Source: Perkinsus olseni
Lineage: Eukaryota
Direction: 5' to 3'
NCBI GenBank assembly: GCA_013115125.1
Contig: JABANN010000207.1
Span: 1-53,063 of the forward strand
Length of the DNA: 53,063 nucleotides
The first letter of the stretch is position 1. Each line of letters begins with the position of its first letter. Shown in pieces: positions 1-50,861 of this stretch. The notes below the pieces were generated by a model that saw only the letters and a program-made list of their open reading frames with translations, was not told the origin of the DNA and did no database searches. The translations under genes and the position numbers were made by a program.

Positions 1-1168
1 AGTAGAGAAGGAGTCCGCGCAGGCGCTACATACGACAGAGTAGTCGCGGTGGCTGAACAAGTCAGCGGAGCCTACAGTTACTCCAGGAGCTCATCTCCTC
101 GACCGCCTGCTCAACTCGCGGGCGGGCGGGAACCCAGCGGGAGCCTACCTCTGGCTCAGAGGCTGGGAGCGAATGAGTAATCCGTTCCGCTAGTCTGCAA
201 GAGCAGGACACTGTCAGGGAAGCTTCCATTGAGCAGGACGGCATCATGCACAGGATGAAGGCCGTCCACCCAGCTGCCATGGTGCAGAGCAGTGAGTCAT
301 CCCTAAGCTGGGAGCCCTGACCTGTGCAAGCTGCAGTGGACCCAACATGGCCGGGCCAAGTGCCGCAGGCGAGCTTAACCACTGCCGGGCAACGGACTGG
401 GGTAGAGCGGAAAGGACCGACGCAGTGCGCAGTGACTGCCGCAGGTACTCGAAGCGAGCGAACAGCCCATCGCGGAAACCTGCGCTGTCCACACTGCGGA
501 ACACAAAGGGACCAACTCTGGGGGAGGCACAACGTGGACTGGCAAGTCTAACCCGAGGTCCATGCGAACTGCGCGAAGGACGAACCCAAGAGACTTGAGG
601 AAACAGAGCCCGGTCAACCCTTGGTCCGCAGGAAGATAGCGGGAGAGCAGAGCAGACCCGACAGTGCCGGATATAAACAAATTCGCTTAGCGGAGCGAGG
701 TTGGAGAACAGCTCTGCTGCCTCCATGTGACTTGATCAACATGATCAGAAGCAGCAAGGCTCCCGCCGATGGCGATGCCTCGCCCGCCACGGCAGATACT
801 CGTGCAGGAGACGAGACACTGAAAGATCGGAGACCGGCGTCTTCGTACCGCTGCTAGGCAACATCCCCGACGGGCCCTTCCAGAAGCTAAGCGATGATCT
901 ACTACGAGCCTCAAGTTTCACGCCGAAAGCCGGCTTAGTCGGACTAGCTCCGATGTCTGTCGACCCAAGAGGGTATTGGACCAATACTATTGGTTCAGAC
1001 AAGTTCATCGAGCCAGGAATGTCGCGCTCGTCCACGAGTATCGGACAAACATAGAACGCTTCCTTTCCTCCAGGCAGGAATCCCTTTCAGTAGTGGGGCG
1101 GTAGTGCACTACCAAATCCTAGGCGAATGATTGACGTGATCCTTTTAGTGTGGTACTGTTGTTCTCTA

Positions 1169-2305
1169 ATGTGGAAGGCCTACGTAACGGTGTTCCTCGT
1201 AGCTTCGCTGTGCGTGATCTGCGAAGCTTCAGGAGTGGCACCGGATCCCTCCGACGGAATTGTGTCTATGCCGGTGAAGGGTGGCTTCGTTACAGTCAAC
1301 TTGGACGGCCAACGAGTAAATCTTCTCCTGGATTCTAACTTCTTCGAGATCTCTGTAGTCGATGGCGATTGGTATGAGCGAGCGTACGGTGAAGGTGCTT
1401 GCCGGAAGAGGGAGAACTCGGGCTGCTACTTCTGTCCTGAAGACGCCCCCTGTGACTTCGACAACGACTCGTCATCATCGACTACTCGCTTCGATGGCGG
1501 TCTCGTCATCAGGACCATATCACGCTCGGGTTCCCTCGAACTGGATGGCCAAAATGTCGACCTGATTTTTAAAGTTTCCAGGCCCGTGGGCTCCAACCGT
1601 GACGCTGGGCTGAAGGCGTTCTTTGGGATCTCTTTGCTTCCGAAGGGACCAGATCAGATCGAAGGCAGAGAGAGTGTCCTTGATTCCCTCGTTCGGGGTG
1701 GCGTCATTGGCCGTCTGTCTTTCTCGCTTCAAACCAACATCAGCCAAGTCTCCGATTTCGCCTCCGGCCAGCTCACGCTCGGTGGCAAGGCGGATGACAA
1801 CTACACCTTCCTGAAGCTCGTGGAAGACCAGCGGTACCATCGTGCGTTTCCTGCTGTATGGGTGTCGTCAATCAATCTCGCGGACACAGGCACGAAGCCA
1901 CGATCGGCGAGAGAGCACGCGGCCCGAACCCCGTTTGTTGCCTTCATGGACACTGGCGCCAACGGCATTTACGTTCCTCGCCCAGATCTACTGAATGGCA
2001 TGAAGCAGAGGCTGTTGTTGAGGTGGCAAGGCAATGGTGTGTGGAAACGAGACGCCAAGGGGTTCCTGCACGTGAAGGGGCAATCTTGCCTCGACCTGCC
2101 TCAGCTGAACCTTCGACTGAGTGACGGTATTGATGCTGTTCCGATAAGGATACGTCCGAAGCATTACTGTGTTACCCAACGAATAGGGGAAGATGTGGTA
2201 CTCGTGCAGGAAAATAGTATTAAAATACTGGGAGCACCGTTCTTCAAGGCCTACAGTGTTTATGTTGATTACGTTGATAAAAAAATTGGCCTGCTTGAGA
2301 ATTAA
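1169..2305 (+). CDS. Secreted pepsin-like (A1) aspartic protease, intronless
   Basis: Signal-like N-terminus MWKAYVTVFLVASLCVICEA; first lobe VNLLLDSN, second lobe FMDTGAN; LSFSL..GQLTLGG; C-terminal ILGAPFFKAYSVYVDYVDKKIGL typical of the pepsin family. An upstream in-frame ATG at 1127 is also possible. Confidence 0.9.
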   Translation: MWKAYVTVFLVASLCVICEASGVAPDPSDGIVSMPVKGGFVTVNLDGQRVNLLLDSNFFEISVVDGDWYERAYGEGACRKRENSGCYFCPEDAPCDFDNDSSSSTTRFDGGLVIRTISRSGSLELDGQNVDLIFKVSRPVGSNRDAGLKAFFGISLLPKGPDQIEGRESVLDSLVRGGVIGRLSFSLQTNISQVSDFASGQLTLGGKADDNYTFLKLVEDQRYHRAFPAVWVSSINLADTGTKPRSAREHAARTPFVAFMDTGANGIYVPRPDLLNGMKQRLLLRWQGNGVWKRDAKGFLHVKGQSCLDLPQLNLRLSDGIDAVPIRIRPKHYCVTQRIGEDVVLVQENSIKILGAPFFKAYSVYVDYVDKKIGLLEN

Positions 2306-6500: not shown

Positions 6501-7243
6501 TTCCATCTACGAAGCACCGCATTAAGGTATTGAAGTCTGGGTACGCTGAGAGCCTGGTTGGAATGTCGTCCAGTATCCGGGGTTCCGATTCGATAGAGAG
6601 GTTGTCGTAGCATCGGTGGCAATGCGCCCCCACAGTGCCCACGACCGTCCTACGTCTCTTTAGAGACCACCTTCCGTCTTCCAGTGGCCGTGCCCGGTCC
6701 CTCTAGTAACTCGTCCATTCTCTTCTGCGCCTGGGCCGTCGCCAACCTATCCGCCCTCTCCGCCCCATCTGCGTACCTGATGGTCCCCTGCAGCCGTGCT
6801 ACTCCTAGACCACCTACAACCGCTCGAATCGATCCAGTGGCTGGTCCAGTAGAGAGCCCGTCTCCTTGGCGCTGCCGAGTGGCTGACAATGTAACCAGCC
6901 TCAAGACGGGTACTGCCACTTCCCCTATTACCTCCACCTCCGTCAAGCTCTGCTCGGTGGCGCTCGGCCTTATGCCGATAGTTGATATGATCTCCTTTGC
7001 CCTCTCCAACGCCCTCTCACCTGCAGCAGCTGTACTGAGCAGTGTTGCTACCCTACTTACTATCCGAGACTGTTGCGGTCTGGTCCCTTGGTGCCTCCGT
7101 CACCCTACTACTAGCGTGAGGACTGCTGTTGGCGGTACTGATGCTAGGGCAGCCCCCACCACCTGCTGCTGCTGATACCGAACCTTTTCAGACAGCAAGG
7201 AGGGCCGCAGTGGCAGCCCCAGATGGGACTTGAACACGAGCAT
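3546..7243 (-). CDS. Multi-exon uncharacterised coiled-coil protein with repeated RY(A/F)(D/E)G-..R..K/L-rich modules
   Basis: Minus-strand segments repeat the same motif: IRYADGAERADRL, DRYAEGAERKARRKDLEK, IRYADGERRRAKLERL, VRYAESKARKERIEKL, IRFEESKLRHDALL. Exon boundaries and start not resolved. Confidence 0.55.
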
Positions 7244-7868
7244 AACTAAGAGACTTTTCACCCTCTTCGACCGTCGATCTGGTACGTGACTAACTCCCCT
7301 AAAGCGAATGACCTCGAGAACTCCGCGCAACGCCGCCAGGAATGTGACAGCCGGGTTGAGCGATATGCGGCGGCTAGATCGGCTACATCGAGACTTCTAC
7401 TCAGTTAACTTCAACCAGTCGGGCATCGACGACATGCAAGCGACGGACCACCCAGGAGCATTTCTGAGGGGTATCGCATACCCACTTTGCGTAACCACCT
7501 CTACTGGAGCTGCTCTTGAGGGACCAACAGTCGACCCAGCCGGAGGGGCGGCATCGATGGACTCTGTGCTGTGTTTGGTCTGCCCAGGAGGGAGGAGGAG
7601 GTATCGAGTGTTCGCCACCGACACCACGCCACCTCTGATGATGCGTGAGTCCCTCTTGTGGCGGCCAGAGGGGAGTTGCCAACGGCTGGCGTGTCCTCAG
7701 ATGCCGGACAGGGAGGATCCTCATCGACGATCATGTCAGGCTGGAGACGATTAGACGACGATAGACAAAAGTCAAACAGGAACCAACTCATCAGCACACC
7801 ACCCGTGATCGATATTAACAACACCCAACCCTTTCAACAACAGCGCTGGTCAGAAACATGATAGCCGG

Positions 7869-9115
7869 TCAAGTATCCTCAGGCGGAGTAGGGTCGAGGA
7901 GGTGCTGTAGCTGGGCTGCCGTATTCCTCCTGACCAAGTCCGCAGTGGTGGCGATCGACCCCATCTGCCTTCGCCGCAAACAGTGCTCGTATTGGCCCAT
8001 CGTCAAGGGCTCAGGGTAGTGCTGATCCAGGCTGATGCATTGAAGACTCTCGCAGCGTATCATGTCAGCTACCGTGGACTCGTCTACGGCCCACTGAACC
8101 TACCGTTGAGGAATATTGAGATCTGGCAAGACTGCAAGATGTGGCTAAAGACTATTCGTAATTTCGTGGCGCGCGGGTATCATTTACATTAACGTAAGTG
8201 TCCTGGATTTCCCCATCCATCTCTTTCACTTTTTCCGACTGACTTCTCCACCACCGCTGAATTATAACAGCCGCCTGAGCGTTGAGAAATTGCAAGATTA
8301 CGCAAGATTTCAAGACCCTACTTGAGTCTTCACAGGTAGATCTATACCAGGTAGAATCTGCTTCACCACTGCCTCCACGTGCTGCACCAAGTCTGCCAGG
8401 ATTCTTTCAACCCCAACAAAGTCACCGTCACCACCTGTCTGGTCGATTATCCGCCGCCGTACGAGTACTTGGTCAATGATCTTCCTCACAGACCCCTGGG
8501 CTCCCGCAAACCACAACGTGACTCCGCGGGAACTGTACTCCTCCGCAAGCTCTTCCAGGCCCTATCAGGAGCCGAGTAAGGGAAGAGACGGTATCTTAGT
8601 TTCAACCTGGACTGCTGTGGCGTCGACTATAGGTACTCCACCGAGTTGGATGACGACTGCCTCTACTGGCTTGCTACAGTACGCGGCGTACTTCTCTTCA
8701 GTTTTCAGTAACCTGGAAATAGCCCCGCTCGAAAATACGGAAATTTCCCCTCTTCCTCACTTGTCTTTCACATACTCCCAATTAGCGAATATCAACGGCC
8801 CATTGACACCAAAGACCAAGATTCCCGGTATGGTCTTGGCGCTCTGCGGCCAGTATTTGATAGCTCTCCATTGGCCGTTACTCAACCTAAGATACGTCGA
8901 GGACCTTGCCTTAGCCTATCTTTCGAGCCACGACGTGATTTCTGGTACCAAAAATTCGACGAAAAATTGAAAAGTCCAATGCGAGAGGCCCTCCGAAGAG
9001 CGGGGGCCCGGCCCACCCCGGGGGGGGGGGGCGCGGGGGGGGGGCCGGGGGGAACCCGCGGGGGGGGGGGGGGGCGNNNNNCCGCACCCCCCCCCCCCCC
9101 CCCCCCCCCCCCGCG

Positions 9116-30481: not shown

Positions 30482-31513
30482 ATGCATCTCTTTATGGTCG
30501 TTCTATCCCTCGCTGCCTCTCTCGGAGAGGACGATGGTGACCAATGTATGGCTAATTATGCACGGGAACGGTACTGGGAAGACGCTGACCAAACCTTCAT
30601 TAAGTTCTTCGCCGCTCGGGGCCCGGAGAGGTACAACTGCGGTGACAGCTACAACTACTTGAATGTGGCCGATGCCTCCACGAAGGGGACTATCCTTCAT
30701 CTCTTGGCATTGGCGAAGTTTATCGAGGATTTCCGTCAGGCTAGTAATAACCATGCGACGGTATACCTATACTATCAGGGTGGATCCAAAGAAGATGAAG
30801 CAGCTGGGGCTACCAATTTTGTGTACATCTTCGAATCGTTCGTCCGCAAGTTCGCGACTGATGAGATGGGATCCCTTGGCATCAGCTTCGACGTGAAGCT
30901 TAAGTTCGGCCCATACATGAAGTTACTCGACGGCGTTTTCCAGATGAAGGAGAGGCTGAAACAGCACAACTTGAAGTTCGGTGTGACAATTCCCTATGAC
31001 CAGGAGGGTGCTGTATATGTCGACAGGTTTATGACGAGGGCCGATCGTATAACAGTCATGACCTACGGCAACTATTTTGGTCTTCCTGTGAACATGATGA
31101 CACACTTCCTCAAGGACACTTGTGTCTACTGTCATAGTGTAAACTATAATACCCTCAAGGCTAAGATCACATTCATCGCTCAGGGCGACTGTGAAGACTC
31201 AAGTTTGTGTCCAAAAGCGACCATGTGCGCCTACAATAGTGACACCGCTCGGACTGCCTTTAGGGACTCCGGCTTCATGCCGGGAACCGCGGGCGGCTCC
31301 TATGAAGTGATGTTCTACGTCTATGAGCTGCTAAAGTATACCACCGACTATTTACGCGGTAACGTCACCCGCGAGAAGTGGTTCGATCACCTATTCAAGG
31401 AGCAAGGGACTCGTTTTGGTATTAGCGACTTCAAGTGGGCCGGATCCTTTTATGGCTCGCAAGTTGCGAAGTCTGTCGGACTAACCCAATGGATGAATAC
31501 CCACGCCTCGTGA
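30482..31513 (+). CDS. Secreted 343-aa protein, probably a divergent GH18-like TIM barrel lacking the catalytic Glu
   Basis: Intronless ORF with a signal peptide; LGISFDVK and ADRITVMTYG resemble GH18 DGxxxDxE and DxxxxMxYD. The CDS is solid; the fold assignment is tentative. Confidence 0.7.
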   Translation: MHLFMVVLSLAASLGEDDGDQCMANYARERYWEDADQTFIKFFAARGPERYNCGDSYNYLNVADASTKGTILHLLALAKFIEDFRQASNNHATVYLYYQGGSKEDEAAGATNFVYIFESFVRKFATDEMGSLGISFDVKLKFGPYMKLLDGVFQMKERLKQHNLKFGVTIPYDQEGAVYVDRFMTRADRITVMTYGNYFGLPVNMMTHFLKDTCVYCHSVNYNTLKAKITFIAQGDCEDSSLCPKATMCAYNSDTARTAFRDSGFMPGTAGGSYEVMFYVYELLKYTTDYLRGNVTREKWFDHLFKEQGTRFGISDFKWAGSFYGSQVAKSVGLTQWMNTHAS

Positions 31514-33761: not shown

Positions 33762-34796
33762 TCACGGCCCTGGCTTCAGCTTTTGCTTAATACCGTAGAT
33801 GAGGGAACGCGTATCCTCGGGCGGGAGGTCTGATCCCAGGTGCCAGGCCATGAGCCCGCCCAAGCCCTCGTTGTTGGATAAGTCGATCTTTTCTTGCAGG
33901 ATAGGCTGCGAGTCGAAGAAGTATCCCGCGAATGATCCGTTCCCCTTGGGGTCGGCGCCCATCTCAACAAGCTTGAAATACGTTATTTGCGTTCCAGCAC
34001 CGTTCTCGCCGTACAGAGGTACCTATGAAGTTCGTAGAATGAACGACGACCTACCCTCGCTTGACATGTACAGAGAGTTATCTCACCCCAAGAGCGAACT
34101 TGGCAGAAGGCAGACCTTGAACGTTTTTCCACTCGTTGACCATGTTCTTCACCCAATAAATGTTGGACTGGCCCCTTGGGTCGTTGTGGTTGTCGTATCC
34201 CATCCATTGTCTACCACACCACACAAGCCAATCCTCTTGTACAGGGCGTATGCGTTACCGATGCTGAAGGACGGACGATGCGACAACAGACCGATGTTAA
34301 GCTCGACTTACGCGACGCTCACATTAACATTCTTGCCGTTCTTCTTCACGTTCTCCTTCGTCCCCTTCATCAAATCTCGATATTTGTTCCACTCATCGGT
34401 ATTCCTTGGGAACTCCCAATCAAAATTGATACCATCGAACTTGTACTGCTCGACCATTTTGTTCGCGGAGCCGTAGAACTTCGAAAAGGCAGCCGGGCCG
34501 CCATTGATGAACGGAATGCTCTGCAGCACGAACGGGACCCTCGCACCGTGAGTGTCGGCAGCCTGGCGGGCCAACAGCAGTTCGTTCTCATTGGAGAAAG
34601 TCCTCGTTATCGTTGTATCGGCTGAGACGGAGAATCCCACAAAGATGAGCTCCGTGACGCCTGCGTTGAAGATATCGTCGAAATAGGAGACATTCCTAGT
34701 GACTGGGAGGTCTTCGCCTATGAAGTAGGCGTAGAATTCGAACGCCTTGGTCTGCGATACGACGGCAGCCAGCAGAAGGTAGCAGATGGTTGCCAT
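33762..34796 (-). pseudogene. GH18 chitinase, three exons, frameshifted
   Basis: Signal peptide, FDGINFDWEFP catalytic motif, KFALG/VPLYG, GLGGLMAW. Exon 2 lacks 7 nt (near 34207) relative to the paralog at 40360, which shifts the frame. Confidence 0.85.
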
Positions 34797-34910: not shown

Positions 34911-35045
34911 AACGATAAACCACATGGATAATCCATGTGGTTTATCGTTGTGTTGGCTCACTGTGCCGACTGTGCCACTGGCCGATTGCCTTCACACTGT
35001 GCCGCTGAAGGCAATCCATGATGGATTGCCTTCAGCGGCACAGTG
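34911..35045. repeat. Paired long hairpins (19-1-19 and 25-1-25) sharing target 8-mer CATGGATT
   Basis: Perfect palindromes at 34911-34949 (centre A) and 34995-35045 (centre G), with patchwork filler between them. Confidence 0.85.
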
Positions 35046-38616: not shown

Positions 38617-38876
38617 GCCTATATGGGGGTCGAGGATATCATCGCATTAGCAAATTGGCGGTAGGGCCGTAGCCTATATGGGGGTCGAGGATATCATCGC
38701 ATTAGCAAATTGGCGGTAGGGCCGTAGCCTATATGGGGGTCGAGGNNNNNNNNNNNNNNNNNNNNNNNNNNNNNNNNNNNNNNNNNNNNNNNNNNNNNNN
38801 NNNNNNNNNNNNNNNNNNNNNNNNNNNNNNNNNNNNNNNNNNNGGATATCATCGCATTAGCAAATTGGCGGTAGGG
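38617..38876. repeat. 55-bp minisatellite spanning an assembly gap
   Basis: Unit GCCTATATGGGGGTCGAGGATATCATCGCATTAGCAAATTGGCGGTAGGGCCGTA starts at 38617, 38672 and 38727 and resumes after the N-run. Confidence 0.9.
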
Positions 38877-39556
38877 TCGAGATGAGGGAATGCAATTGGA
38901 TGCGGATAGAGAAGTCGTTTCAGCGGGAGGCCTCAAATAAGGAGGTCAATTTCGCCGATGAAGATATCAATTTCGGAGATCAACTTTGACCTGAAATGTT
39001 CGGGCATATAACTCCGCACGATCTATTCCCGTGCGATTTCACTGATTCCTCTACATGTGATACCCTGATGCGCTTCACGGCAATTCATGTCATATTGCCC
39101 CACTCTTGCCAGGCCCCACTTGAGCCATGCAACGCGCGTGTTCTATAACTGACTACATACTCACAAGTTCCAATATCTTCAACACCAGTTTGATCATCAC
39201 TTTCAGCGCGTAGTACTGGATGGTACATTCGGAGACTCCCCGACGGAGAGTCTACCCCGACTTCCATCGTCAGCTTGCCGTGCCGTTATTGCATTCTAGG
39301 CCCCCAGGTGCCTTCTTCGACAGCGCCTCGGAGAAAATGTTGCTTGTTCTGCTCCTCGTTCACACGTGCACATATTCTTCACTTCGAAGGTGAGCCCAGG
39401 ATTAACTTCTCCGAGAAAGATCCTGTGAAGCCCTCCGTCTCGTTGACAGTGAACGCTCGAGAACACTAGTACTGGGCATATACCGACCGAGCACATGTCA
39501 ACGCTACAGAAGGTCTCCAACTGAGCACATCGGCAACCTGCCGACGGCAAGGGTCT

Positions 39557-39914: not shown

Positions 39915-40503
39915 TCAAGGCCCTGGCTTCAGCTTTTGCTTAATGGCATAGATGAGGGAGCGCGTATCCTCAGGCAGAAGATCGCACCTCAGACGAAAGG
40001 CCATGAGTCCGCCCAAGCCCTCGTTGTTGCATAAGTCGATCTTTTCTTGCAGGATAGGCTGCGAGTCGAAGAAGTATCCCGCGAATGATCCGTTCCCCTT
40101 AGGGTCGGCGCCCATCTCAACAAGCTGGAAATAATTTATTTGCGTTTCAGCACCGTTCTCGCCGTACAGAGGTACCTATGAAGTTCATAGTATGAACGAC
40201 GACCTACCCTCCCTTGACATGTACAGAGAGTTATCTCACCCCAAGAGCGAACTTGGCGGGTGGCAGACCTTGAACGTTTTTCCACTCGTTGACCATGTTC
40301 TTCACCCAATAAATGTTGGAGTGACCTCTGGTGTCGCCGCAGTTGTCGTATCCCATCCACAGGCACTTGTCCACCACACCACACAAGCCAATGCTCTTGT
40401 ACAGGGCGTATGAGTTACCGATGCTGAAGGACGGGCTATGCGACAACAGACCGATGTTAAACTCGACTTACGCGACGCTCACATTAACATTCCTGCCGCT
40501 CTT
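39915..40503 (-). pseudogene. 5'-truncated GH18 chitinase paralog
   Basis: Highly similar to 33762-34340, including both introns and the 3' flank (39690-39915 vs 33540-33762). Similarity stops near 40503, so the signal peptide and DxxDxE motif are absent. Confidence 0.85.
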
Positions 40504-41216: not shown

Positions 41217-42444
41217 TGTTAACCATCGGGAAACTCAAGTCAATGGTTTAGTGGAATCCTGAGATTCTGCCAATAATAACACTGATAAAGTCATCAACTA
41301 GCGTCAGGCTAAGCTTAGGAGCCATAGTTGTGCACTTGCACAACTACATCTCCCTCCCCTAAGAGACGGAAGCGTACAGTGACAATAAAAACAATAAAAG
41401 GAAGCTAAGAAGTGGAATCATCATTTACAACAACAGTATTATCATCATCATCGTCATCATCGTCGATATTAAAACGAGCTTCTCTGAGGACCTTAGCTTC
41501 ATCACATACGCAAGGACAGGATCAAATAAATAGAAAAAGAAACACAGCTTTGAGTCTTTTCCTTATCTGCACAGGATAAAAGTAACTATCACTCATGAAA
41601 AGTTTACTGCTATTAATGAAAGGCTCATTCTGCTTAACACCTTCTGACATCGCAATAGTAGCAATACAATACCACTCATTCTGATAAATAGTATGAACAA
41701 TTGGATCAGCAGGAACAGCAAGGGTCGGTTTATCAGGCAAGAATAATAGTACTGAATCGAAATTAATGCAGTCTCTATTTTCAGGATGAACAACTTTAAC
41801 AACTTTGGGTTCAATATTATCAACATGACCTATAATAGTACCACTATCATCATCATCGTCCATAGTTCTCATCGCATCTTTGTCGCAGACCAGATTATCA
41901 CATTCGCTATCCTCGGATACCGGATGTACAACTTGTTCAGAGTCAATCTTGCCAATACTGGTCACAGTGAGCGGTGTCGAGCCAGCAATAGAAGCAGCAG
42001 CAGTGGCAGTAATAATAACATCATCACCCACAGATCTTTCTTGGGAACCCATCCTATCGCGCACATCCTTAATGGAAACGTTGGCAGAACGATACAACTG
42101 GGGACGAGTATCTTCAATACTCTCCATATAATCGCACCAAGTCAATATATCAGCAACAGTCGTCTTCTTATCAGTGAGCATCTCTTCGCACTTCTCAGCA
42201 AATTCTTCGTCAGTAACATATCGTAAAAGGTAAACGTTCTCTACACCAAAGGCATGAGCAATCTGCAAGCCAACGGGGTTCACCGAGGGCTCGGAAGACG
42301 GGTTCTCCACCATGTTAACCATCGGGAAACTCAAGTCAATGGTTTAGTGGAATCCTGAGATTCTGCCAATAATAACACTGATAAAGTCATCAACTAGCGT
42401 CAGGCTAAGCTTAGGAGCCATAGTTGTGCACTTGCACAACTACA
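41217..42444 (-). mobile_element. Miniature (TRIM-like) non-autonomous LTR retrotransposon, 1228 bp
   Basis: Identical 132-bp TG...CA LTRs at 41217-41348 and 42313-42444; 5-bp TSD TTGAC (41212-41216, 42445-42449); minus-strand PBS TGGTGGAGAACCCG (42299-42312) and PPT AGGGGAGGGAGA (41349-41360). Confidence 0.95.
41522..42313 (-). CDS. Single 263-aa ORF of the mini LTR element (no RT, protease or integrase core motifs seen)
   Basis: Uninterrupted ORF filling most of the internal region; its ATG is formed by the last LTR base plus the TG of the PBS. Confidence 0.65.
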   Translation of the reverse strand: MVENPSSEPSVNPVGLQIAHAFGVENVYLLRYVTDEEFAEKCEEMLTDKKTTVADILTWCDYMESIEDTRPQLYRSANVSIKDVRDRMGSQERSVGDDVIITATAAASIAGSTPLTVTSIGKIDSEQVVHPVSEDSECDNLVCDKDAMRTMDDDDDSGTIIGHVDNIEPKVVKVVHPENRDCINFDSVLLFLPDKPTLAVPADPIVHTIYQNEWYCIATIAMSEGVKQNEPFINSSKLFMSDSYFYPVQIRKRLKAVFLFLFI

Positions 42445-42489
42445 TTGACTACTCGGAGTAGCCTACCTTCCTGAACGAGGTCGCGGTCT

Positions 42490-42511: not shown

Positions 42512-44476
42512 CTTCCTGGAAAGATAGCCTGAATGTTATTGTGCCAGTATTGGGACTCTTCGTGTGTGAACTGGATTATGTGAATGTCTCCGACCCCTTC
42601 ACCAACCTTGCGCTTGATGCTGTACAACCCGTCAAAGAAGGCGCCCTTACCATTAACCTTAAAAGTCATAATATCAGTAAAGGTTGGACGGACTTTAGTT
42701 TTGGGAAAGGCTTCAATGCTTCAGAGATGATCCCGGCGAGATTAGGCATCATCAACAAGAACCTGCCAGGTTCTTGTCGATGATGAATCGTCGGCCAGAA
42801 GGGGATGGACGCACATGTGTTGTCTCCACTAGGGTGTAGGCAACATGTTGTATATAGATCTTCATCCACTATCCCCACTACACGCCTGTAAGTGTCCTCA
42901 TCAGCGACAGTAGACCCTAGTACGCGTGAAAGCCAATTCTGTGTCACAGCACAGTGCAGCAGTTGTGATATGCCGGGGGAGCTTGGGCCGGTTACCGGCC
43001 GCCTGTTTGAACCAGCATCTACCTTCGATAGCGCCGCTGCCTACCCTTCCGCTTGCGTGCTCGAGTAAGTTGTATAGACCACGCTATAAAGCTCCTGGTT
43101 ACTCGGCCTCATCAGTGCAGCGAGAAGTTCTCGCTGCACTGATGGGGCTTCACTGCTGAGAAGACACTAATGAGAAGTCCGAGGGCAACTAGTCTACTCG
43201 GGTAGGAACATTCCGACGGAGATCTGACTTATAATAGTTCCACATACGGAGTTTAGGGTCAGCACGAATAAGACGAAACCGGCCCGCGGAGAGCGCGGTA
43301 TCATTACGGGGAGTTACGAGTGGGTTGCATCCAAGGAAAAAGATCTTCCCAGATTGGTCGGCAGCAGGATTGCAATTCGTGCCCACTCGCAATGCCTTCT
43401 TGGACTCAAAGTTAGGCGTCTCTCGATGCCATCTACTGTTACGTAAGCACAAACCATTTTTCGCTCTGCAGACGTACAAGTTGGTGCCAGTGATATGCCG
43501 AATAGGTGGCTCTTGAGGAGGAGGTCCAGGGGAAAGTGTCTTCTCGATGAGAAATGGCGACGATTCCCTCCCATATCATCAGTTACCGCTGTAGACCACA
43601 TGACATCGAAACAACTATCATTATCATCTGGAGGTATGGACGAAGTCACATACCGTCGGTGAAGCCGGCCGTGTGGGGACATTCGACACAAAGGTGCAGC
43701 GTTGGGACACCAGCTGCACAGCTAGCGCTAGTATCGGACTCGGTTTCTGCCTTCGGCTACTCGAGTTGAGTTGACTCATTTATATTCGGGAGGAACACGG
43801 CTGCGTCCCTGCGGAGACGCGTGGGTCGCGCCGCCAGGCCTCTCTTTTGTTTTAAGCCACCCTCCCTAAACCCTACAAAAAACCGAGAGTGTGGGTGAGC
43901 TCGTCACCATTCAAAGGATGGGGCGGGCTGGACGTGTCTAGCACCGTTACCAGGGCAAGGTGCTTGGTCGAATACTCGGCTTTCATGGGCCTGCAAGTCC
44001 GTGATCGCTTGGGTTTCGGCGGTTCCGAGAGCTCTCTCACGGAACTGCGCTTGCCTCAGGTTCCGGCGCTCGCACGCCCCACTCCCCCTCCCCACACTCA
44101 GAGGTTTCACCAGGTGGATGAGGGTTTTCCGATACCGTTCCCTATCCTCAGTGAGGATTCCTCACCCTTCCCTCTTTGGTTGTCTAGCCTCTCACTTGTG
44201 TTTGAGAAGCGATTTTCATTCTCCGAGAGAATTTCTCCACTACATCAGCTCAACGCTTATAATCGCTTACATTCCCCAACCGAGTCCCGACCTTGAGTTC
44301 TATCACGGTGGCTACAACAAGACACACAAGTGAACCTCCTCCATGGCCGACACCGAGCAGACCCCAGACTCGATGATAGCAAGGTAGCCGGAAGAAGCGA
44401 ACTTCACTCGGTGTGGGCAAATCGATCATCGCTGGCATTTCCTAGAGATTATATAATAAGCTCAAATTGAGCGTCG

Positions 44477-44498
44477 TGTGAGTAACTCACAGTGAGTT
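44477..44498. repeat. Direct-inverted-direct 22-nt scar (target TGTGAGTT)
   Basis: TGTGAGT+AACTCACA+GTGAGTT, exact. Confidence 0.85.
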
Positions 44499-45139
44499 AT
44501 GAGGTCGATTGTGTAGAGGATTAGGATGGGCTGAGGAGAGCGCACGGAGGTGCGAGCAGCTTGTTTCACGTTCCTGATAGTTTCTTGGACAAACTGCAGT
44601 AGGCCTGCTAAGGGTTGAGTGGTGTCCAATGGACACTGTACATCCAGTGCCGAAGCAGGCGCTGAGCACCGAGGCTAGGATGGAGGTTAATACTGGCCTT
44701 CGTGAGGCCCAAGAGTTTTCGGCCGCTCGTGGTGATGAATCATCATCGCTGATGATGAACGTGATGTTCGGAAGAAAGCATCGAAAAGGGGATGAACGGC
44801 GGAGGGAGCAACCCGCAGAGTGTTGTATGTCTCTGATCAGGGGAGCTCCTACTTGCAGTTATGCTCTGGCGACAGCTTGATCTCAGTTTGAGAGCCTTCG
44901 TGAAAGTCGTGATCGCGATTTGTTTGGAGTGCACCCTCATGGACTGCCGAACCCGTTGTCATTGAGAACCCAAGGAAGAGAAGTTTTCTTTGAAAATGGA
45001 CGGTATAATACCGTAGGTATTGAAAAATAGAATGTATCTCGGCTCCTCCACGTCGTGAAGTTCACGAACCTCATTATAAGGCCCTTATACATAGCTGGCT
45101 GACGAGCTTCCTTCGGCTCGAACGAGTGTAGCACAGTCG

Positions 45140-45161
45140 GTGCTAGTCTAGCACTGCTAGA
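45140..45161. repeat. Direct-inverted-direct 22-nt scar (target GTGCTAGA)
   Basis: GTGCTAG+TCTAGCAC+TGCTAGA, exact. Confidence 0.85.
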
Positions 45162-45612
45162 GGAGACAGCTCGGAAATGTGAGGTCAATAACTAACTAAG
45201 GCATAGGCCTGATAGTAAAAGAGCCTCCTAGGGCACAGACTGGGGGTGTACGAAGTAAAGATGGCCATGGCTCGGCCCGAGCGAAGCCCACGATGACGCG
45301 CAACCGGTTTGGAGACAGATAGAGAGAAGTTAAGCTACGTAACTTAACGCACACTATCTGTGCGCGAGGGCCTCACGGTGAGGCTCACTCTCGGGCATCC
45401 ATCAAACCGCAATCATCATCACTATTGAGCCGATGCACGTTGGTTGTTCTGAACATATGTGCTACATATTTTGTATGAACAACTTGTTCATACAAAATAT
45501 GTGCTCATTATCAAGCAACGGCGGTATAGAAGAGAGATCTTGACAAGATATCTCTTCTGTACCGCCGTTGCTTGATAACAAGATCATCTTGTTGTTGACT
45601 CTCACGACGTTC

Positions 45613-45901
45613 CTAAAAACCCTCACAACAGTTAGTACAATGGTCTTCGGCGAAGACTCTTCGCATACGAACAGGTCCAGGAAACATCTAAAGTCGGCGG
45701 AGTTTTCCTTCGGGGGTAAACTCTCGCAGAATCTGCAGGTGGCACAGCGAGCTTCTGCAGGATTCACCGGCTCGATGATGACAGAGTCATCGGTCGTCCG
45801 ACGACCGTCGTAGGGGTAGAGGTTGTGGTAGGCTCAATAGCAGGTGCGGCAAAAGCAACACCAATGATGAACAGGACCTTTGCGATGAAGATGGCCTTCA
45901 T
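45613..45901 (-). pseudogene. Small secreted 8-cysteine peptide gene disrupted by two +14-nt scars
   Basis: Collapsing the scars at 45792-45813 and 45643-45664 to single 8-mers yields an open 86-aa ORF: MKAIFIAKVLFIIGVAFAAPAIEPTTTSTPTTDDSVIIEPVNPAEARCATCRFCESLPPKENSADFRCFLDLFVCEDHCTNCCEGF*. Confidence 0.88.
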
Positions 45902-46865
45902 GTTTACTATCATGAGCTCGATGGGTAGTACAACTGTTGTACTACCGAATTTCCGGGCGAGCGAGATTTCTTCCTTACACGACATACTCCCTTAGATTTC
46001 CGTAATTCAGCGATTACTATTGGCGATAACGAATAGATAAAACCAAGGGAGAGCGCGTATGACAGGTTCTTGATGATTAATGTATCATTTCTAGTAGTGA
46101 AACGGTTTCTAGCGACGCTAGAGGGTAGACGAAACGCTTTGGGTATGCGTGCTGCGTAAAGTATGATTGTCGTGCTTGGTGTCAACTGCGCCAATCACTA
46201 ACGGGCTCGGCTCCGGATCGAGCCTCTTGGCAGCCCTGTATGTGTTCTGGCAGGGTGAGCTTTCGGTCCGGGAGTTTCAGCACAATGGCAAATTGTGTTA
46301 TCGTTTCCACTCTTGAGTGACCGTCTTTCCTATGTGAGGAATCAGCGAAGCGCTCAATACCTCGACCTACGCAAGATCGCTGAGGGCGCTGTCTTCCCAA
46401 TTCCACTTGACTCAATTCGGAGGACATGGAGCAACGAATTTCGGATCTTACTCTAGTTTAATAGTAGCAACTACTCAAGCATATCTTATCGTTACTGAGC
46501 AGATGAATTAAAGGGCGAGCGATGATCAAAACTGCTCACACCTAGTAGGGAGTTCCCGCGTTCCTCCAGCGAGTTGAACTCTATTTTGCGCTCTTCTTAC
46601 GTGACATCAGAGAGACCCCGCGATGGTCGCGCATCGCCCTCTTGAACATGCATGCCGCGATCTCGAGCAGTGGCTATAGCGCGCTTCTCTAGCGGATACG
46701 CTGCAACAACAAGCCGCTCTCCCGAGATGCGATATCAGTCGGCTATCTGCCTCTACGCCATGAAGTTCACGCTTCTACATTAATACTTGTTAAGTGTCAA
46801 AGACCAAGTGTTGAGTTGGTTTTGATGAGCGGGCGGTGCTGGGATTCGATCCGGGGACCTCACGG

Positions 46866-49646
46866 ATGTCCGCTGCAGTTCATGCTGTCCTGTCAATGAC
46901 AACAACCGCGTTTGATGCATCGGAGAAGAGGGAAGTTAAAGAGAATGACGATACTCCGAGATGCTCCGACTTAGACGGGGTTACTGATGGACTGTCGGGC
47001 GTGATGGTAACCTCGGCAGAAGGCGCCACGGCAGTTGCCTTGGATGAGCTTGGAAGCTCTTGGACTGCAACTCTGCGAGGGGTACCCGCCTACAGGTTAA
47101 TGAGTTGGATGGGTACGCTTGCTCGCGAAGAACTTAGGTTCGAACCCACGTAAGGCTTCTTCTCAGATAACCCTTTTAACCGAGGTCATAATACCGATCG
47201 TTCCCTCCGTAGAAGATATTCCAACTCCGTCAGTGTTTCCCGCCTCGACTTCTTTGTGAGTCATTCCTGGAACGCCTCCTGGTGGGAGAAGTAATATCCT
47301 CCCGTGACGATGGATTCTGCTGTTGCAGAGGGCTGCTCAACAGTGCGCTCGATTCTTCCCTGCAGGCTCTTGGCTTTGTGTTATCTTTTCAACTACCAAC
47401 GGGCTTCCTGGTCGTCCATCGCTGCCGCCATCATCGAGGTCTCTGTTGTACTCTATATTTACTGTAATCAAAGTGCACCCGATACGAGCCTCCCCACGGC
47501 GCATTTCTTGGCTTGTATAAGTGAGTCGGATGATGGCCACTGTGAGCTAGACATCATCGCCATCATGGCAGGTACTAGTGTGTTTATTCTGCTACTACTT
47601 CTGCCCAATTTTCAGCTCACCAGAAGCAGCTACAAACTGTTCGTCGATAACTGTTGTATTCCGCAGGATGATGTAGGCGGGTGAGGGACGACGGAGGCGT
47701 CTAAGTTTTTGACGCCAATTACCATACCACACCACTCCCTACTCTTCAGCCCGTTCTCAAGGAGGTCGGCATCCGTTCTCTCGGTTCCTATCTGAGCCGT
47801 TCCTCCTCGATAATAGTGATGTGGTCGAAGTGTTACTTTGATCGCCTCTGGTGCGTCTATGAGCTTGCGGCCTTCCTGAGCCTCAAGGCCGGGGCGTTGA
47901 ATGGAGATCGGGGACCTGCCGAGAGAGGAAGTCCAGTCGTGGAGGAACTGAGCAGGGTTGGGAGGGGCATCAAAGAGTAATAAGTGACTGGGCCCGAGGG
48001 ACGCGATTTTTCTACTATACGCCGCTACAAGGGGAGATTCAGGAGCGTCCCCGGATGTGCGTTTGCAGGGTGGTTGCCGAAAGTAGTGGCTGCTTGTGCT
48101 GATTTGGTTGGTAGCGAATTGGTTCTTGGTGAAAATCTGAAGTTCTTCGAATTTGATAAAATTGCTGCTGAAAACATCAGAAAATTGAAGAGTTATTGCG
48201 TCGATTAATTCCGGTGATTATGATTTGACCCCCTTTTGGATGGCAGATGGATGGTTGGAAGCAGCTATCGGGACCAGGTCGTCTTTACCTCCCTTCCCTT
48301 AATTAAATTTGTCTTCGCCTTTACTCTAGTGGGCTTCGTAGGCAACATCCTGTTGAGCATAGAAGTGGTAATATTAATAGTAGCTTCTCATGACAGCCAT
48401 CTGCACTGGGTTCCCTCAGGCTGTGGTGGGGTCCTTCAAGGCCAGTCTGAGGGCTCGTCTCATCTGTGCTATCCCAGAGGGCCTCCTGTTGGCGGCCGTC
48501 CTCTGTCCGTTCGCTAGTCGCTACGTCCGGGACAGGGATGCCCTGGTCGATCAGATCATGACCTTCCAGATGGAAAACACAAAGTGCACAGTTGAGGCTG
48601 ATAGAGAGTAGGGCAGTTGGGAAGTCTGCTGGGTTCTAAGGGGACTTGTGAGTACGTACTGAAAGCTGCCATTATTTAGTACTGGACTGTCAGCGTCCGG
48701 AGCATCAGTAGGGGACGGGAGGATTGTCAGGGTAGTTGAAAATAGGAAGAATCATTCCTTTACCGTGCTTCGCGCTGCGCGAATCGCGCAGGGGAGGTAT
48801 TTACTACCGGCATACTTTGAAGGGTCTCAATTTCTCCCAAGCGTTCCTCAGCGTTGGTATGACGCATGAATGGCACCTTCGCTTTGTTGTTCAAGGTTTG
48901 TGACGGGGAGGATCTCTGCTATGTATAACGGTGATCTCACGACCTTCGAGAGAGTCGTCAAATCTGAGGTGGGAAGGGCGGCACGGCAGACGCTGGGAAT
49001 CAGGCGAGGAACGATACCTTTCAAATATGTACTGGGGATGGGGCCTTAAGGGGGGACGCCCTTAGTTCGATTGTACTTCGCAATTTTATGAAAGTTTTAT
49101 CAGGTAGTTCTCCTGTCTACTGTACATATAAACCTAGCACTGTGTCTGTTGCCTCCCGACATCATCATCTGGGGTCCCTTTTGGTCAGTGGGTTGCTTCC
49201 TCCCTCAAGTACTACTGGCCTTCACGAGGATGCCACTTTATATTTTCATTATTCTCACGGGAGCTCGAACAGCGGAGAGTTCTCCGACCAGGACCAGACG
49301 AGCGCTGTTTTTTCTTTTTGTGGGTTGTTGGTCTATTTTCAAGGTCAGTCTGGAGCTGGTCAGCGAGGGCCACCCGTACACGCTCATCCCGTTTTGTTTG
49401 ATTCATTCTATTATCTGTATCGCGCTCTACTTTCCTGTTTTCCCCAGGGAGAGTCGGGGCTGCTTGTCCCGCTTTATCGATCTCATATTTCCGGTGGATG
49501 TTGACGTCGAGGATTTGAACTCTTCTTCTGTTCGGGTGAAAGTTGCTGGTGTGGCTGATCTCGGTGGTGGCTCGAAGAGTCTCCCGTCGCTGAGGAGAGT
49601 TCAACTGGGTGCTGTCTCGAAGGTCTACCATGCGAGAAGCTGGTGA
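46866..49646 (+). CDS. Multi-pass membrane protein with a TIR-like domain split by transmembrane helices
   Basis: Spliced: LDFFVSHSWNASWWEKLLAL, hydrophobic insert, LFVDNCCIPQDD, KEVGIRSLGSYLSRSSSIIVMWSKCYFDRLWCVYELAAFL, then several hydrophobic segments. Start and some exons approximate. Confidence 0.75.
48769..48790. repeat. Direct-inverted-direct 22-nt scar (target TTCGCGCA)
   Basis: TTCGCGC+TGCGCGAA+TCGCGCA, exact; in an apparent intron of the TIR-like gene. Confidence 0.85.
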
Positions 49647-50535: not shown

Positions 50536-50625
50536 GATGTTGACAACATCATGTTGTGGTATGGGTCTGCTGTGTCTAAACCAATACCACAACATCATGT
50601 TGTGGTATGGGTTTAGACACAGCAG
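50536..50625. repeat. 22-nt scar (target GATGTTGT) plus a 29-1-29 hairpin on the same target
   Basis: GATGTTG+ACAACATC+ATGTTGT at 50536-50557; palindrome 50567-50625 (1 mismatch) centred on the same CAACAT-C-ATGTTG junction. Confidence 0.85.
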
Positions 50626-50861
50626 CCCTCGCAAGAGAACCCACAAGTCTCGTGGACAGCAAAGCACCAGCCGGGAATGATCTGTGCACTCCCTTCCTTG
50701 CAACCAAGGCAATAGTCGCAGAACTCGTCAACCGGCCAAGGAGGGCTCACGGGCTCGATGATGATGTCGAGCTCGGAAGGGGCGCTTGTGGTGCTGGACT
50801 TAGGTGGACGAGGGGCGGCGGTGGCGATGGACAGACTTGTCATAATAAGAATACCCTTCAT
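50613..50861 (-). CDS. Small secreted 8-cysteine peptide precursor (82 aa), intact
   Basis: MKGILIMTSLSIATAAP (signal-like), Ser/Thr/Pro linker, IIIEPVSP, then CDYCLGC-x11-CF-x5-C-x3-C-x2-CC; paralogous to 45613-45901. Confidence 0.8.
   Translation of the reverse strand: MKGILIMTSLSIATAAPRPPKSSTTSAPSELDIIIEPVSPPWPVDEFCDYCLGCKEGSAQIIPGWCFAVHETCGFSCEGCCV

What the first reader, a model, noticed from the sequence alone, without database searches (positions are those of the whole stretch)
45613..45901. Internal test of the scar model: two scars knock out a peptide gene and removing them restores it
Seen: the gene has two frameshifts, each located at a 22-nt scar (45792-45813, target GGTCGT[C/A]G; 45643-45664, target GTCTTCGC). 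Removing 14 nt at each gives 261 nt = 86 aa + stop. The rebuilt C-terminus CF-LDLFV-C-EDH-C-TN-CC matches the spacing of the paralog's CF-AVHET-C-GFS-C-EG-CC. Inference: the ancestral state was a single 8-mer, the net gain is 14 nt, and the process actively pseudogenises secreted-protein genes.
Basis: seen in the sequence. Interest (0 to 1): 0.75.

Follow-up and report, generated by a model that had tools for sequence, protein, structure and literature searches.

The report
Transposon excision scars break parasite gene
In the shellfish parasite Perkinsus olseni, jumping genes leave an unusually uniform 22-letter scar when they cut themselves out, and two such scars have broken a small gene of unknown function that happens to sit in a scar hot spot.

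Summary
Both 22-nt scars and both frameshifts are real, and another sample carries them. They are hAT-type excision footprints: target bases 1-7, the inverted 8-mer, bases 2-8. Only 8-mers show this (133 in 634 kb, 0 in shuffles), with an nTnnnnAn bias. The genome holds 8-bp-TSD elements and an uninterrupted hAT transposase. Against unscarred homologues the net gain is 14 nt at 10 of 18 informative scars. Intact homologues exist. At 45643 they fit +14. At 45792 they do not: the window is +2, +2 and -1 nt against the three alignable ones, so the 86-aa ancestor is about even odds. Targeting of secreted genes is unsupported: two hits are expected in this hot spot (P=0.33). The notable part is genome-wide. 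The full inverted 8-mer is the only fill length in clear excess (76 vs 0), whereas published Ac/Ds and TcBuster footprints are mostly a few nucleotides. New variant of a known kind.

The parts
45613..45901 (-). Broken single-exon gene for a small Cys-rich peptide of unknown function (hydrophobic N-terminus, Pro/Thr linker, 8-Cys domain)
   Evidence: homologues
45814..45901 (-). Piece A: start codon, hydrophobic leader, start of linker; 23 of 29 residues identical to the C611 paralog
45792..45813 (.). Footprint 1 (one mismatch). Net length vs intact homologues is +2, +2 and -1 nt, so it is a composite of a footprint and a 12-nt loss, order undecided
45665..45791 (-). Piece B: 41 codons without a stop, 41 of 41 residues identical to P0004 (P. 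olseni, other assemblies)
45643..45664 (.). Footprint 2 (exact 7+8+7), a canonical +14 event
   Evidence: Cys spacing equals P0005 and the 50613 paralog
45613..45642 (-). Piece C: last Cys residues and TAG stop
45508..45593 (.). Long-arm footprint in the 3' flank: 35-bp-arm palindrome centred at 45543. C611 has a degenerate plain 22-nt scar at the same site; an X9 contig has a single target-like 8-mer
45440..45502 (.). Long-arm footprint: 19-bp-arm palindrome centred at 45483 that obeys the hairpin rule; absent from C611 and from an X9 contig
45924..45946 (.). 11-bp-arm odd palindrome upstream of the start, homologous to a one-mismatch scar in C611 (L014:895)
45946..46009 (+). Right-end relic of a ~400-bp MITE family with 10-bp (one copy 9-bp) TSD; not the maker of the 8-mer scars
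44144..45384 (.). Hot spot: seven more 22-nt scars (<=1 mismatch) starting at 44144, 44477, 44622, 45000, 45046, 45140 and 45363
50613..50861 (-). Intact distant paralog (82 aa); footprints lie only in its 3' flank (50536-50557 scar; palindrome centred at 50596)

Best explanation
The scars are empty donor sites of hAT DNA transposons. An element inserts and duplicates an 8-bp target T. On excision each flank is sealed as a hairpin reading T1-7 plus the inverted T (left) or the inverted T plus T2-8 (right). In this organism the hairpins are opened 8 or more nt from the tip, the two single-stranded copies of inverted T pair, and the product is T1-7 + inverted T + T2-8: 22 nt, net +14, a frameshift in any reading frame. 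Opening further out gives the long odd-centred palindromes nearby. The peptide gene lies in a local hot spot and was hit twice. The 45643 hit is canonical. The 45792 hit also involves a 12-nt loss in the repetitive Pro/Thr linker, either earlier and in frame or by microhomology during or after repair. One hit sufficed to break the gene; paralogs remain. Shown: motif, 8-bp specificity, +14 vs empty sites, target bias, resident 8-bp-TSD elements and transposase, intact homologues. Inferred: the hairpin chemistry here (from published hAT work), which family made these two scars, and the order of events.
For: Only k=8 is enriched: 83 exact and 133 at <=1 mismatch in 633,745 bases, vs 1/6 for k=7, 0/2 for k=9, 0/0 for k=10-12, and 0 in shuffles. 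Target T at position 2 and A at 7 in 116 of 266 strand-readings; Hermes targets nTnnnnAn (PMC10512250, passages). Of 23 scars with a spanning homologue, 5 were compared with copies that also carry the scar. Of the other 18, 10 give net +14, 2 give +13, one +16, one +20 and 4 give other values (15 of 32 rows are +14). Odd-centred palindromes with 7-bp arms number 202 vs 36 shuffled. 23 of 40 with arms >=10 carry the partner target copy within 90 nt, 22 of them also with the predicted complementary base. That is the hallmark described for Ac/Ds (PMC5873905, passages). A 4,094-bp element with 11-bp TIRs, a perfect 8-bp TSD and a hAT dimerisation domain. Five of 5 MITE copies with both ends matched (11 loci examined) have perfect 8-bp TSDs. 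11 hAT domain matches. An 819-codon uninterrupted transposase frame with DE, FDGA, H-x-x-NL, TRW and ER-x-FS motifs. A contig of the more distant run X9 lacks the 45046/45068 scars, and others lack the 45483, 45543 and 50596 palindromes.
Against: No element was seen in place at either site, and the gap table was cut (210 rows hidden), so the distant runs could not be read across the two scars. 8 of 18 informative scars gave values other than +14, several from poor 67-77% alignments. At 45792 no alignable intact homologue gives +14. MULE transposases are also abundant (18 matches), and MULEs too make flank hairpins, with 8-10-bp TSDs (PMC5499845, passages). The 634-kb sample was not random: it includes this scar-rich window and was chosen partly around repeats.
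Confidence: 0.85

Rival explanations
1. One reading: both events were plain +14 on an 86-aa ancestor whose linker had already lost four codons in frame.
For: The arithmetic works. The linker is repetitive, and the distant 50613 paralog has the same total linker length of 16 residues. P0004's N-terminal half is only 61% identical to piece A while piece B is identical, so its linker may come from another paralog lineage.
Against: Three of 3 alignable homologues have 4-5 more codons at this spot, including the P. marinus outgroup. The window's frame 1 reads P-T-T-V, as P0004 and P0005 do, four bases into the supposed inverted middle. X9/X10 pieces carrying the P0004-type Arg codon at 45839-41 align down to about 45803 (inferred from the from_end column). 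The one mismatch must have arisen in one TSD copy while the element was resident.
Confidence: 0.45
2. The footprints were left by MULEs (Muta1-like) with 8-bp TSDs rather than by hAT elements.
For: 18 MULE domain matches. Muta1 makes flank hairpins and 8-9-bp TSDs (PMC5499845, passages).
Against: The only long-TIR family measured has 10-bp TSDs (5 of 6 copies; one has 9), and k=9-10 scars are absent. The 8-bp-TSD residents have short TIRs beginning CAG/TAG/TAA, and one encodes a hAT domain. Muta1 excision was >90% precise in yeast. No complete MULE could be delimited, so this rival is not excluded.
Confidence: 0.07
3. A process that actively seeks out secreted-protein genes.
For: At the sample-wide density, two hits in 289 nt have P=0.002.
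Against: Scars cluster (44 of 117 gaps under 500 nt vs 11.7 expected). At the local density P=0.33. Two intact paralogs have scars only in their flanks. Scars also hit transposon sequences.
Confidence: 0.05
4. Transposon-free origin: template switching at quasi-palindromes or another repair by-product.
For: Site 45792 lies in low-complexity Thr codons, where homologues may already form a short quasi-palindrome (inference).
Against: It would not give one fixed length (k=8), the 1-nt trimming at both inner ends, or the T2/A7 bias.
Confidence: 0.03
5. Assembly artefact, or segments spliced out so that the gene is still functional.
For: No transcript across the gene was seen either way.
Against: The X6 contig is identical across both scars. 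14 nt is far below the 54-nt GT..AG intron seen at 47112-47165. Frame-restoring GT..AG spans near the scars would remove conserved residues (read). Intact homologues are single uninterrupted frames.
Confidence: 0.02

Closest known systems
hAT (Ac/Ds, Hermes, TcBuster) excision footprints via flank hairpins
   Same: 8-bp TSD; one base lost at each inner end; palindromic P-nucleotides centred on the complement of the base next to the element; microhomology joins; nTnnnnAn bias (PMC5873905, PMC1978519, PMC10512250, PMC3499496; passages only).
   Different: Published products are mostly short: the longest arm was 3 nt in Candida, arms >=3 nt occurred in 20-30% in Arabidopsis and 47% in yeast (PMC5873905); 1-bp loss or exchange in sugar beet (PMC2921059); a few nucleotides for TcBuster (PMC3499496). 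Here a full 8-nt fill is the only length in clear excess.
MULE Muta1 (Aedes aegypti)
   Same: Flank hairpin intermediate, 8-9-bp TSD (PMC5499845, passages).
   Different: Long TIRs and mostly precise excision; the local long-TIR MITE has 10-bp TSDs and no k=10 scars exist.
V(D)J coding joints (RAG hairpins opened by Artemis)
   Same: Hairpin opening gives P-nucleotides (PMC5499845, passages). The genome has an SNM1/Artemis-type DRMBL nuclease and a Ku domain.
   Different: Not programmed, germline-inherited, and the fill length is set by the TSD.
Uncharacterised Perkinsus proteins P0004 (P. olseni, KAF4705497.1/KAF4713387.1) and P0005 (P. marinus, EER08747.1)
   Same: Same family as the broken gene: hydrophobic leader, Pro/Thr linker, CxxCxxC...C...C...CC; P0004 is identical over piece B.
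   Different: Intact. P0004 has 7 Cys and a more divergent N-terminus. No function known; no Pfam or fold match.

Membership tests
hAT excision footprint | 8-bp target duplicated | tested here: met
   k=8 only: 133 vs 6 (k=7) and 2 (k=9) at <=1 mismatch
hAT excision footprint | Inverted fill centred on the complement of the base adjoining the element, one base trimmed on each side | tested here: met
   7+8+7 geometry; 23 of 40 long odd palindromes carry the partner target copy
hAT excision footprint | Empty site holds a single copy of the target | tested here: met
   net +14 at 10 of 18 informative scars; site 45643 fits P0005 and the 50613 paralog
hAT excision footprint | Resident short-TIR elements with 8-bp TSD and a hAT transposase in the genome | tested here: met
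hAT excision footprint | Target bias nTnnnnAn (Hermes/hobo type) | tested here: met
   T at position 2 and A at 7 in 116 of 266; consensus as stated in PMC10512250
hAT excision footprint | Pre-excision allele with the element at these two sites | tested here: inconclusive
   none listed in four runs; tables were cut
hAT excision footprint | Excision by the transposase shown in an assay | not testable with these tools
   needs bench work
Typical Ac/Ds footprint spectrum | Short fills (1-3 nt) predominate | tested here: not met
   fill 1: 84 vs 91.5 expected; fill 2: 33 vs 34; fill 3: 27 vs 17 (noisy); fill 8: 76 vs 0. High background could hide some tens of short ones.
MULE footprint | Resident MULEs with 8-bp TSD | tested here: inconclusive
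   no complete MULE delimited in 10 loci; the long-TIR MITE has a 10-bp TSD
Pseudogene of a conserved gene family | Intact homologues with conserved residues in the same order | tested here: met
   C611, 50613 paralog, P0004, P0005
Secreted effector or toxin | Secretion and activity on the host | tested here: inconclusive
   hydropathy only; no Pfam hit, Atlas best 0.78, no fold match

The most novel reading that the evidence does not exclude
P. olseni resolves transposon hairpins by a nearly fixed route: open at least 8 nt from the tip, then anneal through the TSD. Every excision therefore leaves a self-identifying, frameshifting +14 mark. Several thousand such marks would form a fossil map of cut-and-paste activity, hot spots and age, readable from a single genome. 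They far outnumber detectable resident elements and would be a main source of gene loss in the parasite's multigene families.
Probability: 0.55. Interest if true: 0.62.

Novelty: new variant of a known kind. Interest (0 to 1): 0.45.

Why it matters
Excision footprints normally cannot be recognised without an empty-site allele. This one can, so the number, placement and age of past excisions become countable in one genome: 133 in 634 kb, which scales to roughly 7,000-8,000 if the non-random sample is representative, against 4 resident 8-bp-TSD elements found by a strict scan. It also points to an unusual hairpin-repair preference in an alveolate that still has Ku and an SNM1-type nuclease, and it flags a recurrent frameshift that gene callers will mis-model. 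The broken peptide gene itself is an ordinary casualty.

Tried and rejected
Homologue search with the C611 protein in the word-indexed database: 1 candidate, none scored. Exact look-up of five window or C611 proteins: not in the collection. Atlas: best score 0.78, a lead only. AlphaFold model of P0005 (4 sequences): mean pLDDT 59, helical Cys domain; Foldseek gave no match at E<=0.001 and VIA best Z was 3.0, so no fold was assigned. Transposase vs PDB sequences: none. No RNA holder was listed; X7 is only guessed RNA and no listed piece crossed the gene, so there is no evidence on expression. The X6/X7 joint 45546->45805 is also in a DNA run and falls where the C611 alignment breaks, so it is not read as splicing. 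The X9/X10 joint 41209->42443 first looked like an 8-bp-TSD insertion; it is an LTR-type element with a 5-bp TSD. The MITE end at 45946 was tested as the scar maker and rejected (10-bp TSD). Loss of end-joining genes as the cause: a Ku domain is present; ligase domains lie on three contigs and ligase IV could not be typed. Zero scars in 53,751 nt of long frames vs 11.3 expected was not used as evidence of selection, because a +14 event shortens frames by construction. One anchor distance (233) was a mis-match of my anchor; +17 at site 45643 is read. Literature: searches listed no paper describing these scars in Perkinsus or a dominant full-TSD inverted fill. I saw listings and abstract starts for most papers and passages for six; no figures or supplements, where footprint tables usually sit. 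Most subscription papers (older Tam3, Ascot-1 and yeast Ac work, recalled) are outside the library.

Full report
Setting. The window is contig C1182 of a 39.9-Mb eukaryotic assembly. A transposase from this genome is identical to a record that its source names Perkinsus olseni, a parasite of molluscs.

Observation. On the minus strand a frame starts at 45901 with a hydrophobic leader and a Pro/Thr linker, continues in a second frame with CxxCxxC and further Cys, and ends in a third frame at a TAG at 45615-45613. The shifts fall at two 22-nt motifs of the form T1-7 + reverse complement of T + T2-8: exact at 45643-45664 and with one mismatch at 45792-45813. The length arithmetic is right. A contig from run X6 covers 44082-46190 with 2 other letters and no gap, so this is not an assembly error.

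What the motif is. The window has 15 exact and 25 near-exact copies, for k=8 only. In 633,745 bases (the window plus stretches of other contigs, not randomly chosen) there are 83 exact and 133 at <=1 mismatch. For comparison, k=7 gave 1/6, k=9 gave 0/2, k=10-12 gave none, and shuffles gave none for k=8. Targets have T at position 2 and A at 7 in 116 of 266 readings, the nTnnnnAn bias given for Hermes (PMC10512250, passages). The geometry is what hAT chemistry predicts: hAT transposases leave hairpins on the flanks (PMC5499845, passages), and Ds footprints show palindromic additions centred on the complement of the base next to the element (PMC5873905, passages). If both hairpins open 8 or more nt from the tip, each exposes the inverted target, and pairing them gives 7+8+7. 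This last step is my inference. Longer openings should give odd-centred palindromes with the second target copy nearby. Odd palindromes with 7-bp arms number 202 against 36 shuffled, and 23 of 40 with arms >=10 carry the partner copy (some rows are two sides of one event). The palindrome at 45483 beside the gene is one of these.

The agents exist. There are 11 hAT dimerisation-domain matches. A 4,094-bp element has 11-bp TIRs, a perfect 8-bp TSD and that domain. An 819-codon uninterrupted transposase frame carries hAT-type motifs. A strict TIR+TSD scan gave 4 hits for 8 bp, 1 for 7 and 0 for 9 or 10. In one MITE family, 5 of 5 copies with both ends matched (11 loci examined) have perfect 8-bp TSDs. 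MULE transposases are also common (18 matches), and no complete MULE could be delimited, so that rival is reduced but not excluded. The one long-TIR family measured has 10-bp TSDs.

Net gain. 273 candidate scars (<=2 mismatches, with duplicates from overlapping loci) were compared with the DNA in hand; 23 had a spanning homologue. Five of those homologues carry the scar too. Of the other 18, 10 give +14, two +13, one +16, one +20, and four give -21, -5, -1 and -1, mostly in poor alignments; one of the -1 values is site 45792. A contig of the more distant run X9 joins 45052 to 45093 with 6 letters between, consistent with lacking the 45046 and 45068 scars plus 6 nt. Others lack the palindromes at 45483, 45543 and 50596. 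So +14 is the rule, and some scars are lineage-specific.

The gene. Four intact homologues were found: an 87-aa paralog on C611, the 82-aa paralog at 50613, P0004 from other P. olseni assemblies and P0005 from P. marinus. Piece B is identical to P0004 over 41 residues, and in this genome only the broken locus has that middle. At 45643 the Cys spacing equals that of P0005 and the 50613 paralog once the footprint is allowed for. C611 is one codon shorter (17-nt gap). P0004 keeps the residues of the target but is three codons shorter just downstream. All four fit 14+3n, and two give exactly 14.

At 45792 the picture differs. P0004 and P0005 have four more linker codons, and C611 five more, than a plain +14 event implies; the window is +2, +2 and -1 nt against them. 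The 50613 paralog has the short total length, but its gaps align elsewhere. The window's first frame also reads P-T-T-V, as P0004 and P0005 do, four bases into the inverted middle. X9/X10 pieces with the P0004-type codon at 45839-41 appear to end near 45803 (inferred). Either 12 nt were lost in frame before the insertion, or they were lost by microhomology during or after repair. Each history needs one or two extra substitutions, and I rate them about even. The family looks mosaic: piece A is closest to C611 and piece B to P0004.

No targeting. Scars cluster (44 of 117 gaps under 500 nt vs 11.7 expected). Seven more lie within 44-46 kb, which makes two hits in 289 nt unremarkable (P=0.33; 0.002 at the sample-wide rate). 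Both intact paralogs have footprints only in their flanks, and scars also sit in a hAT transposase copy, MITEs and an LTR-type element. The data fit local hopping plus weak selection on a duplicated gene; this is inference. The peptide's function is unknown.

What is unusual. Among T1-7 + fill + T2-8 with fills obeying the hairpin rule, only an 8-nt fill is in clear excess: 76 vs 0. Fill 1 gave 84 vs 91.5 expected, fill 2 gave 33 vs 34, and fill 3 gave 27 vs 17, from a noisy control. High background could hide a few tens of short footprints, and precise or deleted excisions are invisible to this test. Published hAT footprints are mostly a few nucleotides (PMC5873905, PMC2921059, PMC3499496; passages), though yeast arms reach 20 nt. 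Ku and an SNM1/Artemis-type nuclease are present, and ligase IV could not be typed, so simple loss of end joining is not shown. Ten literature searches listed no description of this in Perkinsus. Figures, supplements and most subscription papers were not seen.

Verdict. The scars and the broken gene are real; the mechanism is the known hAT hairpin footprint (0.85). The stereotyped, genome-wide form of the footprint is a new variant worth following. Interest 0.45.

Noticed in passing
window 41217-42445: LTR-type element: two identical 133-bp TG..CA repeats, 5-bp TSD, an internal 266-aa frame without a Pfam hit; absent at this site from X9 and X10 contigs; 44 matches in the genome.
   Followed up: partly
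window 45946-46009; L017-L025: About 400-bp MITE family with mismatched outer ends (GATTAAAATC...TTCACC), 45-bp subterminal inverted repeats and 10-bp TSDs, probably MULE-type; one copy (C848) carries a 22-nt scar.
   Followed up: partly
window 45508-45593 vs L014:1250-1272: The window and the C611 paralog carry different footprints (long palindrome vs plain 22-mer) at the same 8-mer, suggesting one insertion duplicated with the gene and excised twice.
   Followed up: partly
L030:336-4429 (G000:C293): Full-length hAT element whose coding region is in pieces and which itself contains 3 scars, i.e. insertion into its own kind.
   Followed up: no
L039:2950-3209 (C1437:42950-43209): 260-bp 8-bp-TSD MITE with a long-arm hairpin footprint inside it at C1437:43068.
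   Followed up: no
window 34930-35020: Footprint with both hairpins opened far out (19- and 25-bp arms, 90 nt apart), within or beside a GH18 chitinase-like gene at 34308-34796.
   Followed up: no
window 33799-34476 and 40176-40413: Duplicated segment (94% identical) whose two copies share one scar, which dates the scar before the duplication.
   Followed up: no
window 1127-2305 and 30482-31513: Intronless frames with hydrophobic N-termini: an aspartyl protease (PF00026) and a 343-aa protein without a Pfam hit; a scar lies about 130 nt upstream of the protease (973-994).
   Followed up: no
window 47112-47165: 54-nt GT..AG intron spliced in an X7 contig.
   Followed up: no
sampled contigs: Palindromes with a 3-nt spacer are also enriched (arms >=10: 38 vs 1 shuffled); not explained here.
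   Followed up: no
window 38617-38881: 55-nt tandem repeat running into an assembly gap.
   Followed up: no
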